NCBI GenBank assembly: GCA_963702845.1
Contig: OY969763.1
Span: forward strand, 320,001-384,000
Source of the DNA: an uncultured Verrucomicrobiae bacterium
GTDB lineage: Bacteria; Verrucomicrobiota; Verrucomicrobiia; Limisphaerales; Palsa-1400
DNA: 64,000 bases
Reading direction: 5' to 3'
This document shows positions 15,890-56,983 of the stretch, one piece after another. Each line of letters begins with the position of its first letter. Position 1 is the stretch's first letter. The notes under the pieces are model-generated. The model was not told the DNA's origin. It saw nothing but the letters and a program-made list of their open reading frames with translations, and searched no databases. The position numbers and the translations under genes are program-made.

Positions 15890-17585
15890 CTATTTCGGTT
15901 GCAGCTTTGTCAACTTGACGGGTTCCGTCCAGAGTTTCGGACCTTTACCATCGCGTGCGATGTAAATGTTTTTCAACCAATTGGCGTTGTCGGTTTTTTC
16001 GAAGTCGGTGCGGTAATGGGCGCCGCGGCTGTCTTCGCGGGCCAAGGCGCTGCGGGCGATCAGCTCGGAAGAGAGGAGCATGTTGCGCATGTCGAGCGCT
16101 TGTTGCCACGTGAGATTGAATTCGCGATTGCCGGTCACGGCGACGGCTTCGTTGCGTTCGTTCAAGGCGCGAATTTCTTCGATGCCTTTGGACAGGTCTG
16201 GGCCATTTCGCACAATGCCGACTTTTTCCCAGGTAACTTTGCCAAGTTCATCGCGCAATGGCCACGGGCTCTCGCCTTTGCGATTCAAAAATTTTTCGGA
16301 CTCGGCAATCGTCGACGCGACCTGATCTTTTTGCGGTTCGGCGAAATCGTTTTCTTTTACCCAATCGGAAACCGAATCACCAACGCGCGCTCCGTAAACG
16401 GTCGATTCGGCTACACCATTGCCGCCGAGTCGATTCGCGCCATGCACACCGCTTGAGTCTTCACCCGCGGCGAATAACCCAATCAAGTTTGTGAAGCCGT
16501 CGCGATTGATTCGGACACCGCCCATGTTGAAGTGCGCGGTCGGGCAAACTTCCACGCGTTCGCGCGCCAAATCGTATCCGATGCGCAAACAGCGATCGCG
16601 CATACCCACAAAGTTTTTCTCCACGAATTCCGCGCCGAGATGCGTCACATCGATCAGCACCGCGCCATTTTCGGTGCCGCGTCCGGCCATGATTTCCATG
16701 AAGCCGGCACGTGAAACGCGATCGCGCGTCGACCGCTCTTGTTTTTCCGGGTCGTAGCGCTGCCATGTAGCGCTCGCCTTTGCCGTTGAACAAATGCGCG
16801 CCCGCACCGCGCAAACCTTCTTCGAGCAAAGCGCCATTGAGCCGCGAGCCTGGCACGACGAGTCCGGTCGGATGAAATTGGACCATTTCCATGTCCATTA
16901 GATGCGCGCCGGCGCGATACGCCATGGCTGGCCCGTCAGAACTTTTTTCCTGCGCACAGGCGGCACGTTGATACATCAGCGGACCCGCGCCGGTCGCGAG
17001 AATGACCGCTTTGGCTTTCACCACGATGTAAGTGCCGGTTTCGATTTCGAGCAACACCGCGCCGATGACACGTTTGCCATCGGCTGACGTCAACAACTCC
17101 AACCCACGGGTCGATTGCAAACAGGGGATGCCCGCCGCCATCACTTGATCGCGCAAACGCGACATAATTTCGATGCCGGTCAAATCACCAACGTGGACGG
17201 TGCGATCGAAACTTTGCCCCGCAAAAGCTTTCTGGTGAATCTGTCCATCGGCGGCGCGATCGAACATACAACCGATGCGATTTTCCAACTCGCGAACGAC
17301 CTTCGGCGCGTCTTGCACGAGGTGCCACGCGAGGTCCTGGTCGTTGATATAGCCGCCGCCTTTGACCGTGTCCTCGAAATGCGCCTGGACCGAGTCCTTG
17401 GGATTGAGCGCGACATTATAGCCGCCTTGCACCATGCGCGTGCAGCCGCTTTTGCCGAGCATCCCCTTGCTCACGAGCAAAATATCCTGACGCGGATCGC
17501 GCCAACGGGCGTGCAGCGCTGCCATGAGGCCGGCGCCGCCTGTGCCAAGGATGAGGATGTCAGTCGAGAGTTGCTGGGCGGTCAT
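15890..17585 (-). pseudogene. SdhA/FrdA/NadB-family flavoprotein with one +1 frameshift (probably a sequencing error)
   Basis: GTGGAG, QFHPT, EGLRG, HFNMGG, HGANRLGGN, EDSRGAHYR; removing one base near 16763 joins the two ORFs as GERYMQRYDPE. Confidence 0.88.
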
Positions 17586-18095: not shown

Positions 18096-19357
18096 ATGAA
18101 TACGGTCACTTCCCTCAAGACAATCAAAGCCAACGTTCAACCCCTGGTTGAAGCCGCACTTGCAGAATCCGGCGGTCTTTTGCGACTCGCCCCGTGCTGG
18201 GTGCCGCGCTCCTTTCTCCAGCCCGGCAAGCGCCTCAAGCTGCATCCCGATGACCTTTACGCGTTCGGCTTGAACCGCGGCGGCATCGACGAGCGCTGGT
18301 TCGCCTCCACCACGCCCGCCGCCAACGAAAATCGCACGCCCGACGAAGGCTTGAGCTATGTCGTCGTCGGCAAACAACGCTTCACCCTGCAAGAAGCCGT
18401 TGCCGAATGCGGCGAAGACATCATCGGCTCAGCCATTTGGAAGAAATACAAAAAATGGCCGGTCTATTCGAAGTTCTTCGACAACATGGGCCCGATTCCC
18501 GCATCACATGCATCAAAGCGCCAAGCAGGCCGCGTTGCTTGGTCTGGAAGGCAAACCGGAATCTTATTATTTCCCGCCGCAACACAACAACGTCGGCAAC
18601 AATTTCCCCTACACCTTCATGGGCCTCGAGCCCGGCACGACCAAAGCCCAGGTCCGCCGCTGCCTCGAAAACTGGAACAAAGGCGACAACGGCATTCTCG
18701 ACCTCAGCCGCGCCTATCGCCTGAAACCCGGCACTGGCTGGCTGATTCCGCCGTGCATTCTTCACGCGCCCGGTTCGCTTTGCACTTACGAGCCGCAATG
18801 GGGCAGTGACGTGTTCGGCATGTATCAATCGCTCGTCGAAGGCCGCGAAGTTCCGTGGTCGTTGCTCGTGAAAGACATGCCCCCGAAAAACCACAAAGAT
18901 CTCGATTTCCTCGTCGACCAGCTCGATTGGGAAGGCAACACCGACGAAAATTTCAAAGACAATCACTACCTCGAGCCCATCCCGGTCGCCGACACCAAGA
19001 AGGAAGGCTACATGGATCGCTGGATCGTTTACGGCAAAGTTGCCGGCGAACAATTGTTCACCGCCAAGGAACTGACGATCGAGCCCGGTGCAAAATGCAC
19101 CATCAAAGACAGCGGCGCCTACGGCCTGATCTACTGTCCAAGGCAAAGGCAAAATGAACCGATTCAACCTCGATTGCCCGAAGCTGATCCGCTTCCACGA
19201 AATGACCGAGGACGAAGTGTTCTGCACCGAAGCCGCCGCCAAAGCGGGTGTCGTTTTCGAGAACACGAGCAGAGTCGAACCGCTGGTTGTGTTGCGTTAC
19301 TTCGGCCCGGAGGTGAACCCGCATGCTCCAAGCGTGGGCGCTTACAAAAGACGTTGA
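18096..19357 (+). pseudogene. Cupin-fold protein (mannose-6-phosphate isomerase-like) with two +1 frameshifts
   Basis: Three overlapping ORFs join into ERW...KFFDNMGPIPHHMHQ...GKPESYY...LHAPGS...YEPQ after removing single bases near 18499 and 19132. Confidence 0.7.
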
Positions 19358-19383
19358 TTACTGCATCGCGGCGCGTGAGCCCG

Positions 19384-20106
19384 TTATGAAGCGGGTGTCT
19401 CTGCAGCAGGAGCCTCAGGTGCAGCTGGCGCAGCATCCGGGTTCGGCGCTTGGCCTTGCACATCGGTCAATGTCATTTGCTCCGTAGGTTCCGGAGGCGC
19501 AGTCGCTAATCCGGGCTCTGCTGTAACGAGTGCTTCCGGTTTGGTCACTGGGATGCGGCGCAGTTCGTCGGCGGCTGGCAAATCTTCCAAACTGCGCAAA
19601 CCGAAATATTCGAGAAACAATTGCGTGGTGCCGTACGTCATCGGACGTCCGACAACTTCTGCACGGCCAACTTGCTCTACCAATCCACGTTCCAGCAATG
19701 TCTGCATCACGCCGTCCACAGCCACGCCGCGGACTTGTTCGATTTCTGTGCGCGTAATCGGCTGGCGATACGCAATGATGGCCAAAGTCTCCAAAGAAGG
19801 CTGAGTCAGGCGTGGCGGGCGGCTCTTCTGTCCGAGCAGGGCCAATAACCATGGCGCAAATTCCGGTTGCGTCACGAACTGCCACGCCCCGGCCACACAC
19901 GCCAAACGATAACTGCGCGCCGCCGTCTCGTGCTCTTTCTGAAGCTCCTCTAGCGCCGCCACTAGGTCGGGTTCCTTCACCTTGGCCCACGGCTTCGCTT
20001 CCGGGCTGCCTTCAGCGGCGGTGGCGAGAAGGTCGCGCAGCTCTTTTGGGCTGAGCGGCTTTTGCGCCGAGAACAGGATCGATTCGAGGATGAACTTCAG
20101 GTCCAT
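19384..20106 (-). CDS. scpB: SMC-Scp complex subunit ScpB
   Basis: LETLAIIAYRQPITR.EIE.VRGV, GRP..YGTT..FLEYFGL.SL.DLP. Confidence 0.96.
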   Translation of the reverse strand: MDLKFILESILFSAQKPLSPKELRDLLATAAEGSPEAKPWAKVKEPDLVAALEELQKEHETAARSYRLACVAGAWQFVTQPEFAPWLLALLGQKSRPPRLTQPSLETLAIIAYRQPITRTEIEQVRGVAVDGVMQTLLERGLVEQVGRAEVVGRPMTYGTTQLFLEYFGLRSLEDLPAADELRRIPVTKPEALVTAEPGLATAPPEPTEQMTLTDVQGQAPNPDAAPAAPEAPAAETPAS

Positions 20107-20115
20107 GATAAAAAA

Positions 20116-20907
20116 TCAGTTTTGGGCTTCCACAGGTGTATCGGAAGCCGTTGTAGGAGCAGGTTGCTCGGGCGCTTTCGCAATATCAATTTCGCCGAAA
20201 TCTTCCGATTGGATGCACAACAGTTTCTTCATGCGGATCATTTCTAGCAATGCCAGAAACGTGCAAACAACTTCCGCCCGGCTGGTCGCAACTTCAAAAA
20301 GCTCAGAAAACTTCACCCGTTCGCGGGTGGCAGTCAGTTCATGCAAAAATTCAATCTTCTGGCTGACGCTCCACTTGTCTTCGAAAATCTCGCGCAACTC
20401 TTCCCGTTGCGAAACCCGTTTCAGGACGGAATTGACCGCGTTAATCAGGTCAAACAACGTCGCTTCCGCCTTCTTCGGCGCGTAACCATTGCCGGCCTGC
20501 AATTCTCCGAGGTCCGGCTTAATCGGCAAACGTGGGAAAATACTTTCCTGGTCGATCTCGCGCTGTTGCAGTTGCGCGGCGGCGTCTTTGAATTTTTTGT
20601 ATTCAACGAGCTGCCGGATCAGTTCCCAGCGCGGATCTTCCTCGTCCTCTTCCTCGCCAGCGGCAACCTGCTGTTCCTTCGGAAGCAGCTCGCGGCTTTT
20701 GATATACATGAGCGTCGCAGCCATCACGAGGAATTCACCCGCGAATTCCAAGTCAAGCAAACGCATCACGTCTAAATACTCGATGAATTGGGTGGCCAGC
20801 TTGGTGAGATTGACCTCATAGATGTCCACCTCTTCTTTTTTGATGAGATAGAGAAGGAGATCGAGCGGCCCTTCGAAGACCTCGAACTGAACTTTATACT
20901 CCGCCAT
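20116..20907 (-). CDS. scpA: Segregation and condensation protein ScpA
   Basis: FEGPLDLLLYLI, EFLVMAATL..IKSR.LLP, TFLALLE. Confidence 0.96.
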   Translation of the reverse strand: MAEYKVQFEVFEGPLDLLLYLIKKEEVDIYEVNLTKLATQFIEYLDVMRLLDLEFAGEFLVMAATLMYIKSRELLPKEQQVAAGEEEDEEDPRWELIRQLVEYKKFKDAAAQLQQREIDQESIFPRLPIKPDLGELQAGNGYAPKKAEATLFDLINAVNSVLKRVSQREELREIFEDKWSVSQKIEFLHELTATRERVKFSELFEVATSRAEVVCTFLALLEMIRMKKLLCIQSEDFGEIDIAKAPEQPAPTTASDTPVEAQN

Positions 20908-21092: not shown

Positions 21093-21120
21093 TTGACTTT
21101 AACGGCCAAGTAACTACTAT
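21093..21120 (+). promoter_or_regulatory. Sigma70-type promoter for candidate sRNA
   Basis: TTGACT (21093-21098), 16 nt, TACTAT (21115-21120). Confidence 0.6.
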
Positions 21121-21126
21121 CGTCAT

Positions 21127-21247
21127 TGGATTTTGATTCGGGTAGCGGTACGTTTCTTCAGCGGGGTTCCCCACCCCCACCTCCTTGGCGTCTGTTGCCC
21201 GAATCTCTCTTTAGCCCCGGTAGAAATACCGGGGCTGTTTTGTTTTT
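21127..21247 (+). ncRNA. Candidate small RNA with anti-SD (CCUCCUU) loop
   Basis: Promoter upstream; 14-bp stem 21135-21148/21192-21205 with G-U pairs; C-rich loop; own terminator; flanking genes both on the minus strand. Confidence 0.6.
21213..21246 (+). terminator. Intrinsic terminator
   Basis: AGCCCCGGTA-GAAA-TACCGGGGCT then GTTTTGTTTTT. Confidence 0.85.
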
Positions 21248-21342
21248 ACCGCTGCTGTCCGAGGCTACTATTAACCCCGATGTCGCGATAAAGTTTCGGA
21301 GGTGGGGCGCGTCGCTCCGCGCGCGCCGCCCGTGATCGAAGC

Positions 21343-23850
21343 CTACCGAACCACTGCCAACTGATTAGTGCGAATCCACCCGGTATGATGGGCCGCATCA
21401 GCGACTTGGAGCCAGTTGTCTTTGGAATCGACCACCAGCAATTCGGCTCCATCCCGGACGGTGAAGGCGCTTTGGGATTCGTCGAAGGGCCCGCGCCGAA
21501 CAACCGCTTCGGCTGTGGTGATCACACCGGATTTGGTTTGGGCGTTCGTATAATCGAAATAGAAGCATACCGCGAGACAGGCGGTTACCAGACCCAACGC
21601 GAATGTCGGTGCCTTCAACACTTTGCGGGTAGCTGGCCAATGTTGTTGGGTCGCCATGACGATAAAAAACACGCCGAGACTCACGCTGGCCGCGACAGTC
21701 CACTCGTTGACCGAAATATGGTTCATCCAACGCGTCCAACGGTTACCGGGCAGGGCAGGGATGTAATTGGCGACGTGATTGCGCGCGAACTGCAAATTGG
21801 CGCGGATATCCGGATCACGCGGCGCGAGTTGTTCGGCTTTCCGATAAGCGACGATGGCGCGACCGACCTGACCTGCCTTAAACCACGCGTTGCCGGCATT
21901 GAAGTAGAGCGCGGGCGAAACCACGCCGACTTGGATCAAATTGTCATAAGCTGCGGCCGACTCAGTGAATTTGCCCTGTTCATAAAGACGATTGGCCTGG
22001 CTGAATATGCTTTCGAGGTCCTGCGCATTCGCTCCGAGCACCGACGCAAGCAGCACAAGCGCGATGGCAGCCGTGGCCGTGCGCGATTTGTTTACTGGCT
22101 TGGCTTCAATGTTTTGCAGAACCCCTAGTGTCGCCTTGAGCTTGTCGATAACCGACTGCAACTCAGCCGAGCTTTGCTGGCGGGCGTAACGGTATTGATT
22201 GCACAACTGGAACAACTCCTGGACCTGCGCCGATTGCTCGCTGCTCAGAGGCAAGTCAGTGACGACTGACTCCGTAATCGCCGAAGCGGGCACATCAAGG
22301 CGTTCGCCGATTTGTTCCTGTAACAGGCGGAAAACCGTCGCATAAAATTCGGCGGGCTTGTTCGCCTGGGCATGCTGTGAAAGCTCGGCCAATCCGGCGT
22401 CAATCTTGCGCGCCACTTCCCGTTGCCGCAGCAGACGCGGATTGTTGGCGATCTTCTCTTTACGCTGACGCCACGCGAACGCGAAAATAAACGCCAGCGC
22501 CGGCACCGCTTGCGCGGCGATGAAGACGGGTTTTTGGATAAGCAGGTGCGTCCCACGAGTGACTGTGCCCAGCGACTGCTTGATATGCACAATTTCCTGC
22601 GCGTTCGACTGCTGCTGGTCCGATGGCGGGCTCGTTTGCACGATCGTCGGTTGCGGCGTGGCGGCGGTCGGACGCACCACGACCGGTAGCGGCGCATGTT
22701 CCAACGTGCGAAACGCGCGTGCATTCGGGTCGAAGAAACTGAAGGTCAGTCCGGGGATCTCTTTGACATCGGCGTTCTCCGGCGTGATGACCTGCTCGAA
22801 ATACTTCGAACCATCAATCTGCATCTGGTCGCGTGTCTCGACCTTTGCCGTCGGCGGATACAACTTGAACTCGCGCCAATCCGCTGTCGTCGGCGCCGAT
22901 GGAATCGAGACCGTATCCCAACTGCCTTGCCCCGCGATGCGGATCTTCAAAGTAATCGGGTCACCCACAGCAACATTCGTCGGCCCGGCCTGATATTGCG
23001 CCAGTGTGAAATTCCCAACCGCACCGGTAAAGTTCGCCGGAGCATTCTTAGTGGGGAGGGGCAAAACGTTCACGTCAACCGTATCGCTTTGCACCGTCAC
23101 CGGACGCGCCTGGGCGAAACCGAAAAAGTCCGGGTTGCCGGTGATTAGATTCATGCTCCAATTTGCCGGCCCAAGTGTGAGCGGACCGATGCGCGTGGCG
23201 CGGACCGGCACGCGAAACGTGAGCAAATTATAGATATTCGCGCCAATCGTCACGCGCGGCGCTTGCTGACGATAATCCGGCACCTCACCCACCATGAAGC
23301 CTTCGCTAGCGAGCACTGGCTTTTGAACTTCACGCGCGCTCTGCACGTAGCATTGCAGTTCGACCGGAACGACTTCGCCGACGTAAAACTCCTTCTTCGG
23401 AATGACGAGCCGGACGAAGACTGGTTCAGTTCCCGCCGGTTTGACGATGCTGCCGGCCCTTTCCACCTTCAGCTTCAACGGCTGACTCGCCACCGGGCGG
23501 CCGTCAATGTCGGATTGAATGGCCGGAATAGTGAACTCGCCCACCTTTTGCGGTTTGAGTTCAAACGTGTAAGTGGCCGTCATTTGCGGCACGCCATTGA
23601 TGAGGCTGATGTTTTGGCTCGTGCCGGTTGAGCCGTATTCGATATCCGGAATCGGCGGAGCAGTTGGTTGATTACGCGGAGTTCCGCCTTCGAAAGTCAG
23701 CGACAGCGTGACCGCTTCGCCCAAGCTGATCGTTTCGCGGTCGAGGCTTGCGGAAAAATTCGGCGCAGCCGCGGCCATTAAGGGCATCAGGCAAAGCAAA
23801 CCCCACGCAGGCAAGAACCTGCGTATTACGGAGAATAATCTGTTTATCAT
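21343..23850 (-). CDS. BatD-family protein fused to BatE-like TPR+SH3 module
   Basis: Signal peptide, BatD Ig-like repeats (FTGAVG.F, VGDPITL.I.I.G.G), TM segments, TPR (LYFNAGNAWFK..PRDPDIRANL), C-terminal SH3 (GWI). Confidence 0.8.
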   Translation of the reverse strand: MINRLFSVIRRFLPAWGLLCLMPLMAAAAPNFSASLDRETISLGEAVTLSLTFEGGTPRNQPTAPPIPDIEYGSTGTSQNISLINGVPQMTATYTFELKPQKVGEFTIPAIQSDIDGRPVASQPLKLKVERAGSIVKPAGTEPVFVRLVIPKKEFYVGEVVPVELQCYVQSAREVQKPVLASEGFMVGEVPDYRQQAPRVTIGANIYNLLTFRVPVRATRIGPLTLGPANWSMNLITGNPDFFGFAQARPVTVQSDTVDVNVLPLPTKNAPANFTGAVGNFTLAQYQAGPTNVAVGDPITLKIRIAGQGSWDTVSIPSAPTTADWREFKLYPPTAKVETRDQMQIDGSKYFEQVITPENADVKEIPGLTFSFFDPNARAFRTLEHAPLPVVVRPTAATPQPTIVQTSPPSDQQQSNAQEIVHIKQSLGTVTRGTHLLIQKPVFIAAQAVPALAFIFAFAWRQRKEKIANNPRLLRQREVARKIDAGLAELSQHAQANKPAEFYATVFRLLQEQIGERLDVPASAITESVVTDLPLSSEQSAQVQELFQLCNQYRYARQQSSAELQSVIDKLKATLGVLQNIEAKPVNKSRTATAAIALVLLASVLGANAQDLESIFSQANRLYEQGKFTESAAAYDNLIQVGVVSPALYFNAGNAWFKAGQVGRAIVAYRKAEQLAPRDPDIRANLQFARNHVANYIPALPGNRWTRWMNHISVNEWTVAASVSLGVFFIVMATQQHWPATRKVLKAPTFALGLVTACLAVCFYFDYTNAQTKSGVITTAEAVVRRGPFDESQSAFTVRDGAELLVVDSKDNWLQVADAAHHTGWIRTNQLAVVR

Positions 23851-23927
23851 CGTTTGCTGCACGGGTAGATAGACAAATAAGTTTCGTGATTGTTCACCCC
23901 GGAAGCAAGCTTCGAGGCGCTCGTTTT

Positions 23928-24042
23928 CGGAATGCGGACGTCCTCGCCCGCAGCAACGTAAAATGCCAACGACAGCGCACGAATTAACCCCGGCGGTGGC
24001 CTGCAAGACTGGCATCGCTGCGGACGAGGAAGTTTGCACCCG
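23928..24042. repeat. REP/MITE-like element with imperfect ~27-bp terminal inverted repeats
   Basis: CGGAATGCGGACGTCCTCGCCCGCAGC ... GCTGCGGACGAGGAAGTTTGCACCCG; a further arm at 28132-28157. Confidence 0.65.
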
Positions 24043-24127
24043 ATTTTTGCGCTCCACGGATTGCTCCTACCCCGCAACCGAGCTTGCTTTGGACCGCATC
24101 ATACTTACGAAACGCGCCGAACCAATC

Positions 24128-56341: not shown

Positions 56342-56983
56342 TTATTTTTGATCCGGAGCTTGTTGTTGTTGCGGAGCTTGGGCGCCGGAGGCTTCATTGA
56401 TGTTGCCTCGGACTTCCACGTTCGGATTGCCGTTCTTATCAATGGAGACATCCTCCTTGCGAACCTGCGATTGGATGTTGACCTGTTGCGTTGACGAGTC
56501 CTTATGCGCAATCACAGAGCCAGTTTGAACAGTTTGTTTTTGAATAACGGGCTGTTCATTCTGCAGCTGGATAGCCACGGATTTGTCCTGGAACGCTTGG
56601 CCCTGCGCTGCACTGCTGGTAGCTGCGCCGGCTGGTGCGCGTTCAACAACGACATGTTCATGACGCAACTCCACTGGCACACTCACCGTTTCGGTGGTTG
56701 TGAATTTGCGAAGTTGCACCTCGCTGGGAACCTCCTGCTTCCCGACGTTCACCCGCTCTTCATACAACGGGATGGCTACCTCGTTGCCAGTCGCCGCTGT
56801 TGGAGCCGGCATGGCTTGAGCGCCGCTTGCTTCAGACGTTGTCGTCGTGCTATAGGCCGTTTGCCCGCATGGTTGTTTCTCTCCGCATGGTTCGTTCGAT
56901 GCGTAGTGATGATGAGTTGCACATGCTGACAAAAAGCCAGCTACCGAGATGATTCCTGTCACATAACTTAGTTGTTTGATCAT
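56342..56983 (-). CDS. YsnF/AvaK (DUF2382) domain lipoprotein
   Basis: Lipobox LSAC; IPL.EER..V.K, V.LRK, V.L..E.V.VER, VRKE.V; strong SD AAGGAGG. Confidence 0.85.
   Translation of the reverse strand: MIKQLSYVTGIISVAGFLSACATHHHYASNEPCGEKQPCGQTAYSTTTTSEASGAQAMPAPTAATGNEVAIPLYEERVNVGKQEVPSEVQLRKFTTTETVSVPVELRHEHVVVERAPAGAATSSAAQGQAFQDKSVAIQLQNEQPVIQKQTVQTGSVIAHKDSSTQQVNIQSQVRKEDVSIDKNGNPNVEVRGNINEASGAQAPQQQQAPDQK

What the first reader, a model, noticed from the sequence alone, without database searches (positions are those of the whole stretch)
21093..21247. Unannotated small RNA candidate exposing an anti-Shine-Dalgarno sequence
Seen: between two minus-strand genes is a complete plus-strand unit. 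It has a TTGACT/TACTAT promoter, a 14-bp stem (21135-21148 with 21192-21205, three G-U pairs that work only on this strand), a C-rich loop CCCCACCCCCACCTCCTT and a GAAA-tetraloop terminator whose T-tract is on the plus strand only. CACCTCCTT matches the 16S rRNA anti-SD tail. Established: CCUCC-loop sRNAs such as the alphaproteobacterial cuckoo RNAs block ribosome-binding sites. Inference: a trans-acting translational repressor. Many genes here lack an obvious SD, but the YsnF-like gene has AAGGAGG and is a possible target.
Basis: partly seen in the sequence, partly recalled or inferred. Interest (0 to 1): 0.8.

Follow-up and report, generated by a model that had tools for sequence, protein, structure and literature searches.

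The report
New Verrucomicrobial anti-Shine-Dalgarno small RNA
This spot is one copy of an uncatalogued, strongly conserved small RNA gene of Verrucomicrobia that displays the same letters as the ribosome's messenger-docking tail and has also been picked up by some phages and by tiny bacteria whose own ribosomes lack that tail, so it probably controls translation, although neither its transcript nor its partner has been shown.

Summary
The unit is real. Promoter, 14-bp stem, three G-U pairs and terminator sit where stated. The 'C-rich loop' is really a bubble plus a covarying 5-bp inner hairpin, and only ACCUCCUU is clearly exposed. It belongs to a family with no Rfam match. It is found in 55 of 60 relatives, 26 of 27 genomes of a family from another order, other classes (Kiritimatiellae and Lentisphaerae labels), five viral contigs, and four Patescibacteria-type genomes. 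It was not found in several other families. Stems covary strongly (91% paired, score 0.55 against 0.18 shuffled), and ACCUCCUU is exact in 87 of 103 copies. It has its own promoter and variable neighbours, so it probably acts in trans. It is not a cuckoo RNA, 6S, SRP or tmRNA, and the genome has no Hfq or Ro60 match. Only about 7% of confident starts here carry an SD, and the Patescibacteria carriers' 16S lacks the anti-SD altogether. Best reading (0.45): it silences the SD-led minority of mRNAs. A 16S-tail decoy is the main rival. Expression is unproven. The scan reported this family earlier on other genomes (e1-7762755, e1-7761664).

The parts
21093..21120 (+). sigma70-type promoter, TTGACT-16-TACTAT
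   Evidence: TTGAC at a matching distance in 79 of 111 homolog loci against 2 in a control window
21127..21134 (+). inferred start and short leader (GGATTTT); absent or shorter in many homologs
   Evidence: inference from the distance to the -10 box and; no 5' end was measured
21135..21154 (+). 5' arm of closing stem P1 (14 bp, a bulged U, 5 bp); inner end CGUU is sequence-conserved
21155..21162 (+). 5' strand of the bubble (UCUUCAGC), pyrimidine-rich, moderately conserved
21163..21177 (+). inner hairpin P2, GGGGU-UCCCC-ACCCC; loop UCCYC; absent in a reduced form of the family
   Evidence: 5 of 5 pairs with two-sided changes, 98% paired; reduced form in L100, L248, L417
21178..21186 (+). 3' strand of the bubble, CACCUCCUU, identical to the 16S anti-SD tail
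   Evidence: ACCTCCTT exact in 87 and CTCCTT in 97 of 103 copies; predicted unpaired
21187..21205 (+). 3' arm of P1; in most homologs followed directly by a T-run, so P1 probably doubles as terminator
21212..21247 (+). second hairpin: GAAA-loop intrinsic terminator with T-tract; genus-specific here
20116..20907 (-). scpA, divergent neighbour; also divergent upstream in L033, L039, L072 and L501, but not a fixed partner
21343..24057 (-). BatD/TPR/SH3 gene, convergent neighbour (context only)

Best explanation
A stand-alone, sigma70-driven non-coding RNA of about 80 nt (up to about 120 nt here if it reads on to the second terminator). A long closing stem protects both ends and holds open a pyrimidine-rich bubble that displays a copy of the 16S anti-SD (ACCUCCUU), with a second C-rich patch (UCCYC) on a small inner hairpin. 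Most likely it pairs in trans, without Hfq, with AAGGAGGU-type Shine-Dalgarno sequences. In this SD-poor organism those mark only a small, clustered minority of mRNAs (many of them stress-type or accessory genes, and any incoming foreign or phage mRNA), which the RNA would keep silent. Shown: gene anatomy, structure, conservation, exposure of the motif, SD scarcity. Inferred: transcription, pairing with mRNA, repression and target identity.
For: Covariation with an invariant unpaired motif. Own promoter and T-run, variable neighbours. Even the reduced form without P2 keeps CUCCUU. Only 7.2% of 1,016 confident starts have an SD of 5 nt or more against 1.7% in a control window, the ribosomal-protein starts printed mostly have none, and SD-led genes cluster (53 close pairs against 34.6 +/- 5.1). 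Of the 27 genes with a 7-8-nt SD, 9 belong to families that I recall as general-stress types (PfpI, DUF2267 twice, DUF308, PRC barrel, low-affinity iron permease, DUF3185, DUF937, erythromycin esterase), against 1 (BON) of 20 random SD-less genes; the stress label is my recall. Precedent: NfeR1 silences many mRNAs through anti-SD motifs (10.1101/2025.11.14.688489, abstract).
Against: No conserved or extended target: AAGGAGGT-N3-8-ATG is near control level across 41 order genomes and no 10-13-nt seed near a start stood out. The 40-nt core is identical in 26 of 29 relatives' loci and bubble plus P2 is 93% identical pairwise (tRNA-Asp 99%), more constraint than an 8-nt seed needs. Four Patescibacteria-type carriers have a 16S without anti-SD, so there is no ribosome-SD pairing to compete with. 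Presence does not track SD use: it is in SD-rich classes and not found in SD-rich f50, f51 and f55 genomes. Expression not shown.
Confidence: 0.45

Rival explanations
1. A mimic of the 16S 3' tail that binds a protein: a decoy or regulator for factors that grip the anti-SD (30S platform proteins such as bS21, bS18 and bS6, assembly or hibernation factors) or for a nuclease that cuts the anti-SD.
For: tRNA-like constraint on the whole bubble and the flanking CGUU/GGCG pairs while the outer stem drifts. Housekeeping-like setting: strong promoter, tRNA-Asp(GTC) next door in 26 of 56 loci. Carried by viral contigs. Anti-SD-gripping proteins exist in SD-poor Bacteroidetes (PMC7797042, passages). 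An anti-SD-removing toxin exists (PMC12274833, search listing only). This genome has two bS21 genes.
Against: The mimic lacks the GAUC that precedes the tail and has no free 3' end. No protein gene travels with the RNA. Patescibacteria carriers have no anti-SD of their own to protect.
Confidence: 0.25
2. A housekeeping or structural RNA of another, unknown function, in which the match to the anti-SD is incidental to a pyrimidine-only bubble.
For: All three single-stranded parts are pyrimidine-rich. Presence does not follow SD use.
Against: The exact 8-mer is kept across classes, phages and Patescibacteria while the other bubble strand changes. 6S, SRP and tmRNA are encoded elsewhere and Ro60 was not found.
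Confidence: 0.13
3. An anti-SD supplied in trans: the RNA docks on ribosomes whose own anti-SD is hidden or missing and helps them start on SD-led mRNAs, acting as an activator or adaptor.
For: It occurs in SD-poor lineages. It was gained and kept, with compensatory stem changes between the orthologous G361 and G367 copies, in a family where 26 of 26 16S ends read lack CCTCC.
Against: It also occurs in classes reported as 60-63% SD-led (PMC10783764, table passage). Carriers in the Patescibacteria-type family show no excess of AAGGAGG-N4-9-ATG (50 against 52 control; 36 non-carriers 492 against 288), the opposite of what an activator predicts, though four related genomes are weak evidence. No pairing site on rRNA beat shuffles. 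I know of no precedent.
Confidence: 0.07
4. A cis element, a plain terminator, or the leader of a small minus-strand protein (the reverse strand reads AAGGAGGT-GGGG-GTG), as in a type I toxin-antitoxin pair.
For: An SD-plus-start reading exists on the minus strand in 91 of 103 copies. scpA lies divergently upstream in several genomes.
Against: Those minus-strand frames run from 4 to over 130 codons with no common length. Promoter, T-run and G-U pairs all point to the plus strand. Neighbours and their orientation vary.
Confidence: 0.05

Closest known systems
Cuckoo RNAs (RSs0680/CcsR, alpha-r14, NfeR1) of Alphaproteobacteria (PMC4615179, abstract and sections 6 and 7 part 1 read; 10.1101/2025.11.14.688489, abstract read)
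   Same: Small stand-alone RNAs with single-stranded anti-SD-like motifs on stems of variable sequence; paralogues occur; some lie next to tRNA genes.
   Different: Cuckoo RNAs are 2-4 adjacent hairpins, each with CCUCCUCCC in the terminal loop, found only in Alphaproteobacteria, and one is Hfq-bound. This RNA is one rod with ACCUCCUU in an internal bubble, in an SD-poor host with no Hfq match, and hits no Rfam model.
C-rich-loop sRNAs of Gram-positive bacteria: RsaE/RoxS and actinobacterial 6C (recalled, no paper read)
   Same: Hfq-independent pairing to G-rich ribosome-binding sites through exposed C-rich patches.
   Different: Different structure and taxa, no Rfam match; their hosts are SD-rich, this host is SD-poor.
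16S rRNA 3' tail, and its sequestration in Bacteroidetes (PMC7797042, passages read)
   Same: Nine identical bases (CACCUCCUU) after a short hairpin; host lineage is SD-poor with an intact 16S anti-SD, as in Bacteroidetes.
   Different: The copy is internal, lacks GAUC and has no free 3' end. The two bS21 genes here have no strong SD, unlike rpsU in Flavobacteriia.
6S RNA and Y RNA (rod with central bubble; recalled)
   Same: Closing stem from both ends and a central single-stranded bubble; housekeeping-like conservation.
   Different: Less than half the length of 6S, which is encoded elsewhere; no TROVE/Ro60 match in the genome.

Membership tests
Cuckoo / alpha-r14 | 2-4 adjacent hairpins | tested here: not met
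   one long stem with a bubble and nested 5-bp hairpin; definition from PMC4615179
Cuckoo / alpha-r14 | CCUCCUCCC in each hairpin loop | tested here: not met
   loop is UCCYC; ACCUCCUU lies in an internal loop
Cuckoo / alpha-r14 | Alphaproteobacterial distribution and Rfam model match | tested here: not met
   record titles mostly Verrucomicrobia, Lentisphaerae, Kiritimatiellae; no match near a gathering score
Anti-SD trans-acting sRNA (functional kind) | own promoter and terminator, independent of neighbours | tested here: met
Anti-SD trans-acting sRNA (functional kind) | conserved, single-stranded anti-SD motif | tested here: met
Anti-SD trans-acting sRNA (functional kind) | a discrete transcript exists | tested here: inconclusive
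   homologs lie in contigs of 4 of 4 RNA runs laid, but the contigs run on into flanks, so DNA cannot be excluded
Anti-SD trans-acting sRNA (functional kind) | pairs with and represses target mRNAs | not testable with these tools
   seed and pattern searches gave no specific target
6S RNA | ~185-nt rod matching RF00013 | tested here: not met
   the genome's 6S lies elsewhere; no match here
Bacterial SRP RNA / tmRNA | match to RF00169 or tmRNA model | tested here: not met
   both lie elsewhere in the genome
Y RNA | Ro60 (TROVE) partner in the genome | tested here: not met
   no PF05731 match in a genome 90% complete
Type I toxin-antitoxin | conserved small toxin frame antisense to the RNA | tested here: not met
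   antisense frame lengths 4 to over 130 codons

The most novel reading that the evidence does not exclude
A free-standing, mobile copy of the ribosome's anti-SD tail with a housekeeping role. It either marks SD-led (non-self or stress) mRNAs for silencing in cells that start translation without SD, or lends an anti-SD in trans to ribosomes that hide or lack one. Phages and anti-SD-less Patescibacteria would have taken it up to steer their own or their host's translation.
Probability: 0.2. Interest if true: 0.9.

Novelty: new variant of a known kind. Interest (0 to 1): 0.7.

Why it matters
No Rfam family and none of my ten paper searches describes this RNA, yet it is nearly as invariant as a tRNA in an abundant soil and freshwater lineage. 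It bears on an open question raised in PMC10798248 (passages read): why Verrucomicrobia keep an anti-SD while hardly using SD sequences. Its retention in bacteria whose 16S has lost the anti-SD, and its presence next to phage genes, make its function testable and suggest more than a routine regulator.

Tried and rejected
Expression: 13 runs on record as RNA (11 studies) hold 3-4 of 8 sampled words. Four were laid: cover is limited to 21131-21212, at depth 2-8 per contig, and most contigs continue into unlike flanks on both sides, so DNA carry-over cannot be excluded; no conclusion. One contig in X3 joins 21205 back to 21131 (depth 4); a single weak hint at the ends. Pairing of the 5' bubble strand with start codons: significant on all ATG starts (p 7e-4) but not on confident starts (p 0.18); rejected. 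Pairing with 16S rRNA around nt 1170-1190: 32 of 60 shuffles did as well; rejected. Minus-strand peptide: rejected. Presence tracking SD use: crude SD excess 0.06 in 14 same-class non-carriers, 0.19 in 12 carriers of other classes, 0.27 in 8 same-phylum genomes without a listed match (20-40 kb each, longest-ORF starts); five of those eight re-searched with R2 gave only two weak hits in one genome (folded); no simple link. Multi-copy pattern hits in f38 and f35 lie in repeated, insertion-sequence-like reading frames (my reading) and score 14 bits or less with R2; not members. Loose class-wide pattern was at control level. Dropped before alignment A1: L099, L101 and the plus-strand partial copy in L074. 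G1060's pattern hit is not a member, nor is G475's. Isolated phages: only a 25-base chance match. Eleven of 13 further viral loci scored under 25 bits. A first 16S-end pattern found nothing in 60 Patescibacteria-type genomes; a looser one worked. Supplements of the motif-discovery papers (PMC11109978, PMC8632094, 10.64898/2026.10.21.760802) were not seen and could list this RNA.

Full report
Observation. It lies between scpA and a BatD/TPR gene, both on the minus strand. The region 21125-21250 folds at z -6.6, and the core folds better on the plus strand than on the minus. CACCTCCTT equals nine bases of the genome's 16S end. Two corrections follow from the homologs: part of the 'loop' is a 5-bp hairpin, and the second hairpin is not part of the family.

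Family and distribution. The genome holds one copy. BLAST found it at E 1e-10 or better in 55 of 60 relatives from the same genus, family and order, and the 40-nt core is identical in 26 of 29 fetched loci. From this I infer that the host is a Limisphaerales member. In 200 genomes of the class, a tight pattern hit 29 of 31 own-order genomes (one of these hits is not a member) and 26 of 27 genomes of family f120 from another order, all with one invariant core; f36 gave 1 of 27 and f38 1 of 13, both chance-like. Diverged members occur in f119 and f124, and a reduced form without the inner hairpin in f39. A covariance search hit 16 of 150 other phylum genomes, 15 of them in other classes (only 29 candidates scored per genome). 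It was not found in ten genomes re-searched more deeply. So it is widespread but patchy. Paralogues occur, ten in one bin with 7% contamination.

Structure. On 103 model-aligned copies 91.2% of cells pair, 21 of 24 pairs show two-sided changes, and the covariation score is 0.549 against 0.183 for shuffles and at most 0.129 for slid partners. On the unfitted 71-sequence alignment the figures are 86.2% and 0.358. These controls do not remove relatedness. The RNA is one rod: a closing stem of about 19 bp, a pyrimidine-rich bubble, and a 5-bp hairpin with a UCCYC loop. ACCTCCTT is exact in 87 of 103 copies and CTCCTT in 97 (copies were partly found through this motif, so the count is biased upward). 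The motif is predicted unpaired at 0.83-0.97 per base.

A gene of its own. TTGAC lies upstream in 79 of 111 loci against 2 in a control window, and TTTT follows the stem in 75 against 5. Neighbours and their orientation vary. tRNA-Asp(GTC) is adjacent in 26 of 56 loci, and scpA is divergent upstream in four others. The window's second terminator occurs in 1 of 29 relatives' loci. The antisense SD-plus-start reading gives no conserved frame.

Not a known RNA. Rfam gave only chance matches for the window region and for 15 diverged loci. SRP, 6S and tmRNA are encoded elsewhere. Hfq and Ro60 were not found in this 90% complete genome. Ten full-text searches listed nothing that describes it. The main texts of three motif-discovery papers do not mention Verrucomicrobia (term searches only); their supplements were not seen. 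Cuckoo RNAs are defined by 2-4 hairpins with CCUCCUCCC loops in Alphaproteobacteria (PMC4615179), and none of these features is met.

Host translation. With my own gene caller (4,892 genes), 7.2% of 1,016 confident starts have an SD of 5 nt or more against 1.7% in a control window. This fits reports of SD scarcity in Verrucomicrobiales (PMC10798248, passages) and 10-15% in Spartobacteria and Methylacidiphilae, whereas Kiritimatiellae and Lentisphaeria are given as 63% and 60% (PMC10783764, passages). SD-led genes cluster. Of the 27 with a 7-8-nt SD, 9 fall in families that I recall as general-stress types, against 1 of 20 random SD-less genes. A further 28 genes with a 6-nt SD, from regions that I picked by eye, include LigD, DUF72, DUF883, BON and two transglycosylase-associated proteins; that set is biased. 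The YsnF-like gene has DUF2382 and an AAGGAGG but nothing marks it out as the target.

Copies outside the phylum. One record titled Patescibacteria led to a family of 0.4-1.4-Mb genomes in which 4 of 151 carry the RNA at 62-78 bits; 0 of 400 further genomes of that phylum matched the pattern. The copies sit among native-looking genes such as rpoB and L27, and three have a clear TTGACA promoter. G361 and G367 share promoter and terminator while their stems differ by compensatory changes and ACCUCCUU stays intact. All 26 16S ends read in this family, the four carriers included, lack CCTCC within 50 bases, as reported for a Parcubacteria subgroup (PMC9297842, passages). Carriers show no excess of AAGGAGG-N4-9-ATG over the reversed control (50 against 52) whereas 36 non-carriers do (492 against 288); four related genomes and a noisy control make this a lead only. 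Five viral contigs hold six copies at 59-87 bits, three beside a DNA polymerase, terminase or primase gene; some may be proviral flanks.

Expression. Inconclusive. Homologs lie in contigs of the four RNA runs laid, but the contigs run on into flanking DNA.

Mechanism. The simplest use of an invariant, exposed ACCUCCUU is pairing with AAGGAGGU, as NfeR1 does (abstract). In an SD-poor cell that would single out the SD-led minority and incoming foreign mRNAs (0.45). Against this: no conserved target, constraint on far more than the seed, and retention where the ribosome has no anti-SD. A protein-binding mimic of the 16S tail (0.25), another housekeeping role (0.13), an anti-SD lent in trans (0.07) and a cis element or peptide leader (0.05) remain. 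Start-codon pairing and 16S pairing were tested and failed.

Earlier notes. Two reports of this scan describe what reads as the same family on other genomes; I saw only their summaries and they are not independent support. My data support wide spread but not presence throughout the phylum. A note on an anti-SD-less Parcubacterial 16S led me to check the carriers' 16S ends.

Verdict. A real, uncatalogued RNA family that looks like an anti-SD sRNA but is not a member of any described one. New variant of a known kind, interest 0.7.

Noticed in passing
G000:C1:673581-673730 and 4615883-4616035 (outside the window): Two bS21 (rpsU) genes; neither has a strong SD, unlike rpsU in Flavobacteriia.
   Followed up: partly
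G000 16S 3' end: The spacer right after the 16S tail begins TCTAAGGAG and could fold back on the anti-SD in the precursor.
   Followed up: no
L010, L013, L016, L066, L074 and others: The tRNA-Asp(GTC) gene beside the RNA is often followed by integrase-like frames, so it looks like an integration site. The window's copy has no tRNA-Asp beside it.
   Followed up: no
run X3, window 21205 to 21131: One contig joins the stem's 3' end to its 5' end (depth 4); could be a circular or ligated form, or an artefact.
   Followed up: no
window 15890-17585 (-) and 18096-19389 (-): An FAD-dependent oxidoreductase-like gene and the gene after scpB are each split over two overlapping frames, suggesting frameshifts or assembly errors.
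   Followed up: no
L340:2375-2749: A frame that looks like a ribosome hibernation factor (by recall) lies 1.9 kb from the RNA in the Patescibacteria-type genome G361.
   Followed up: no
L100, L248, L417 (family f39): Reduced form of the RNA: same closing stem, U-rich loop, no inner hairpin, CUCCUU kept.
   Followed up: partly
L061, L039, L231 and G471:C280: Two copies of the RNA within 0.1-0.5 kb of each other.
   Followed up: no
window 56342-56977 (-): YsnF-like DUF2382 gene with AAGGAGG before its ATG.
   Followed up: yes
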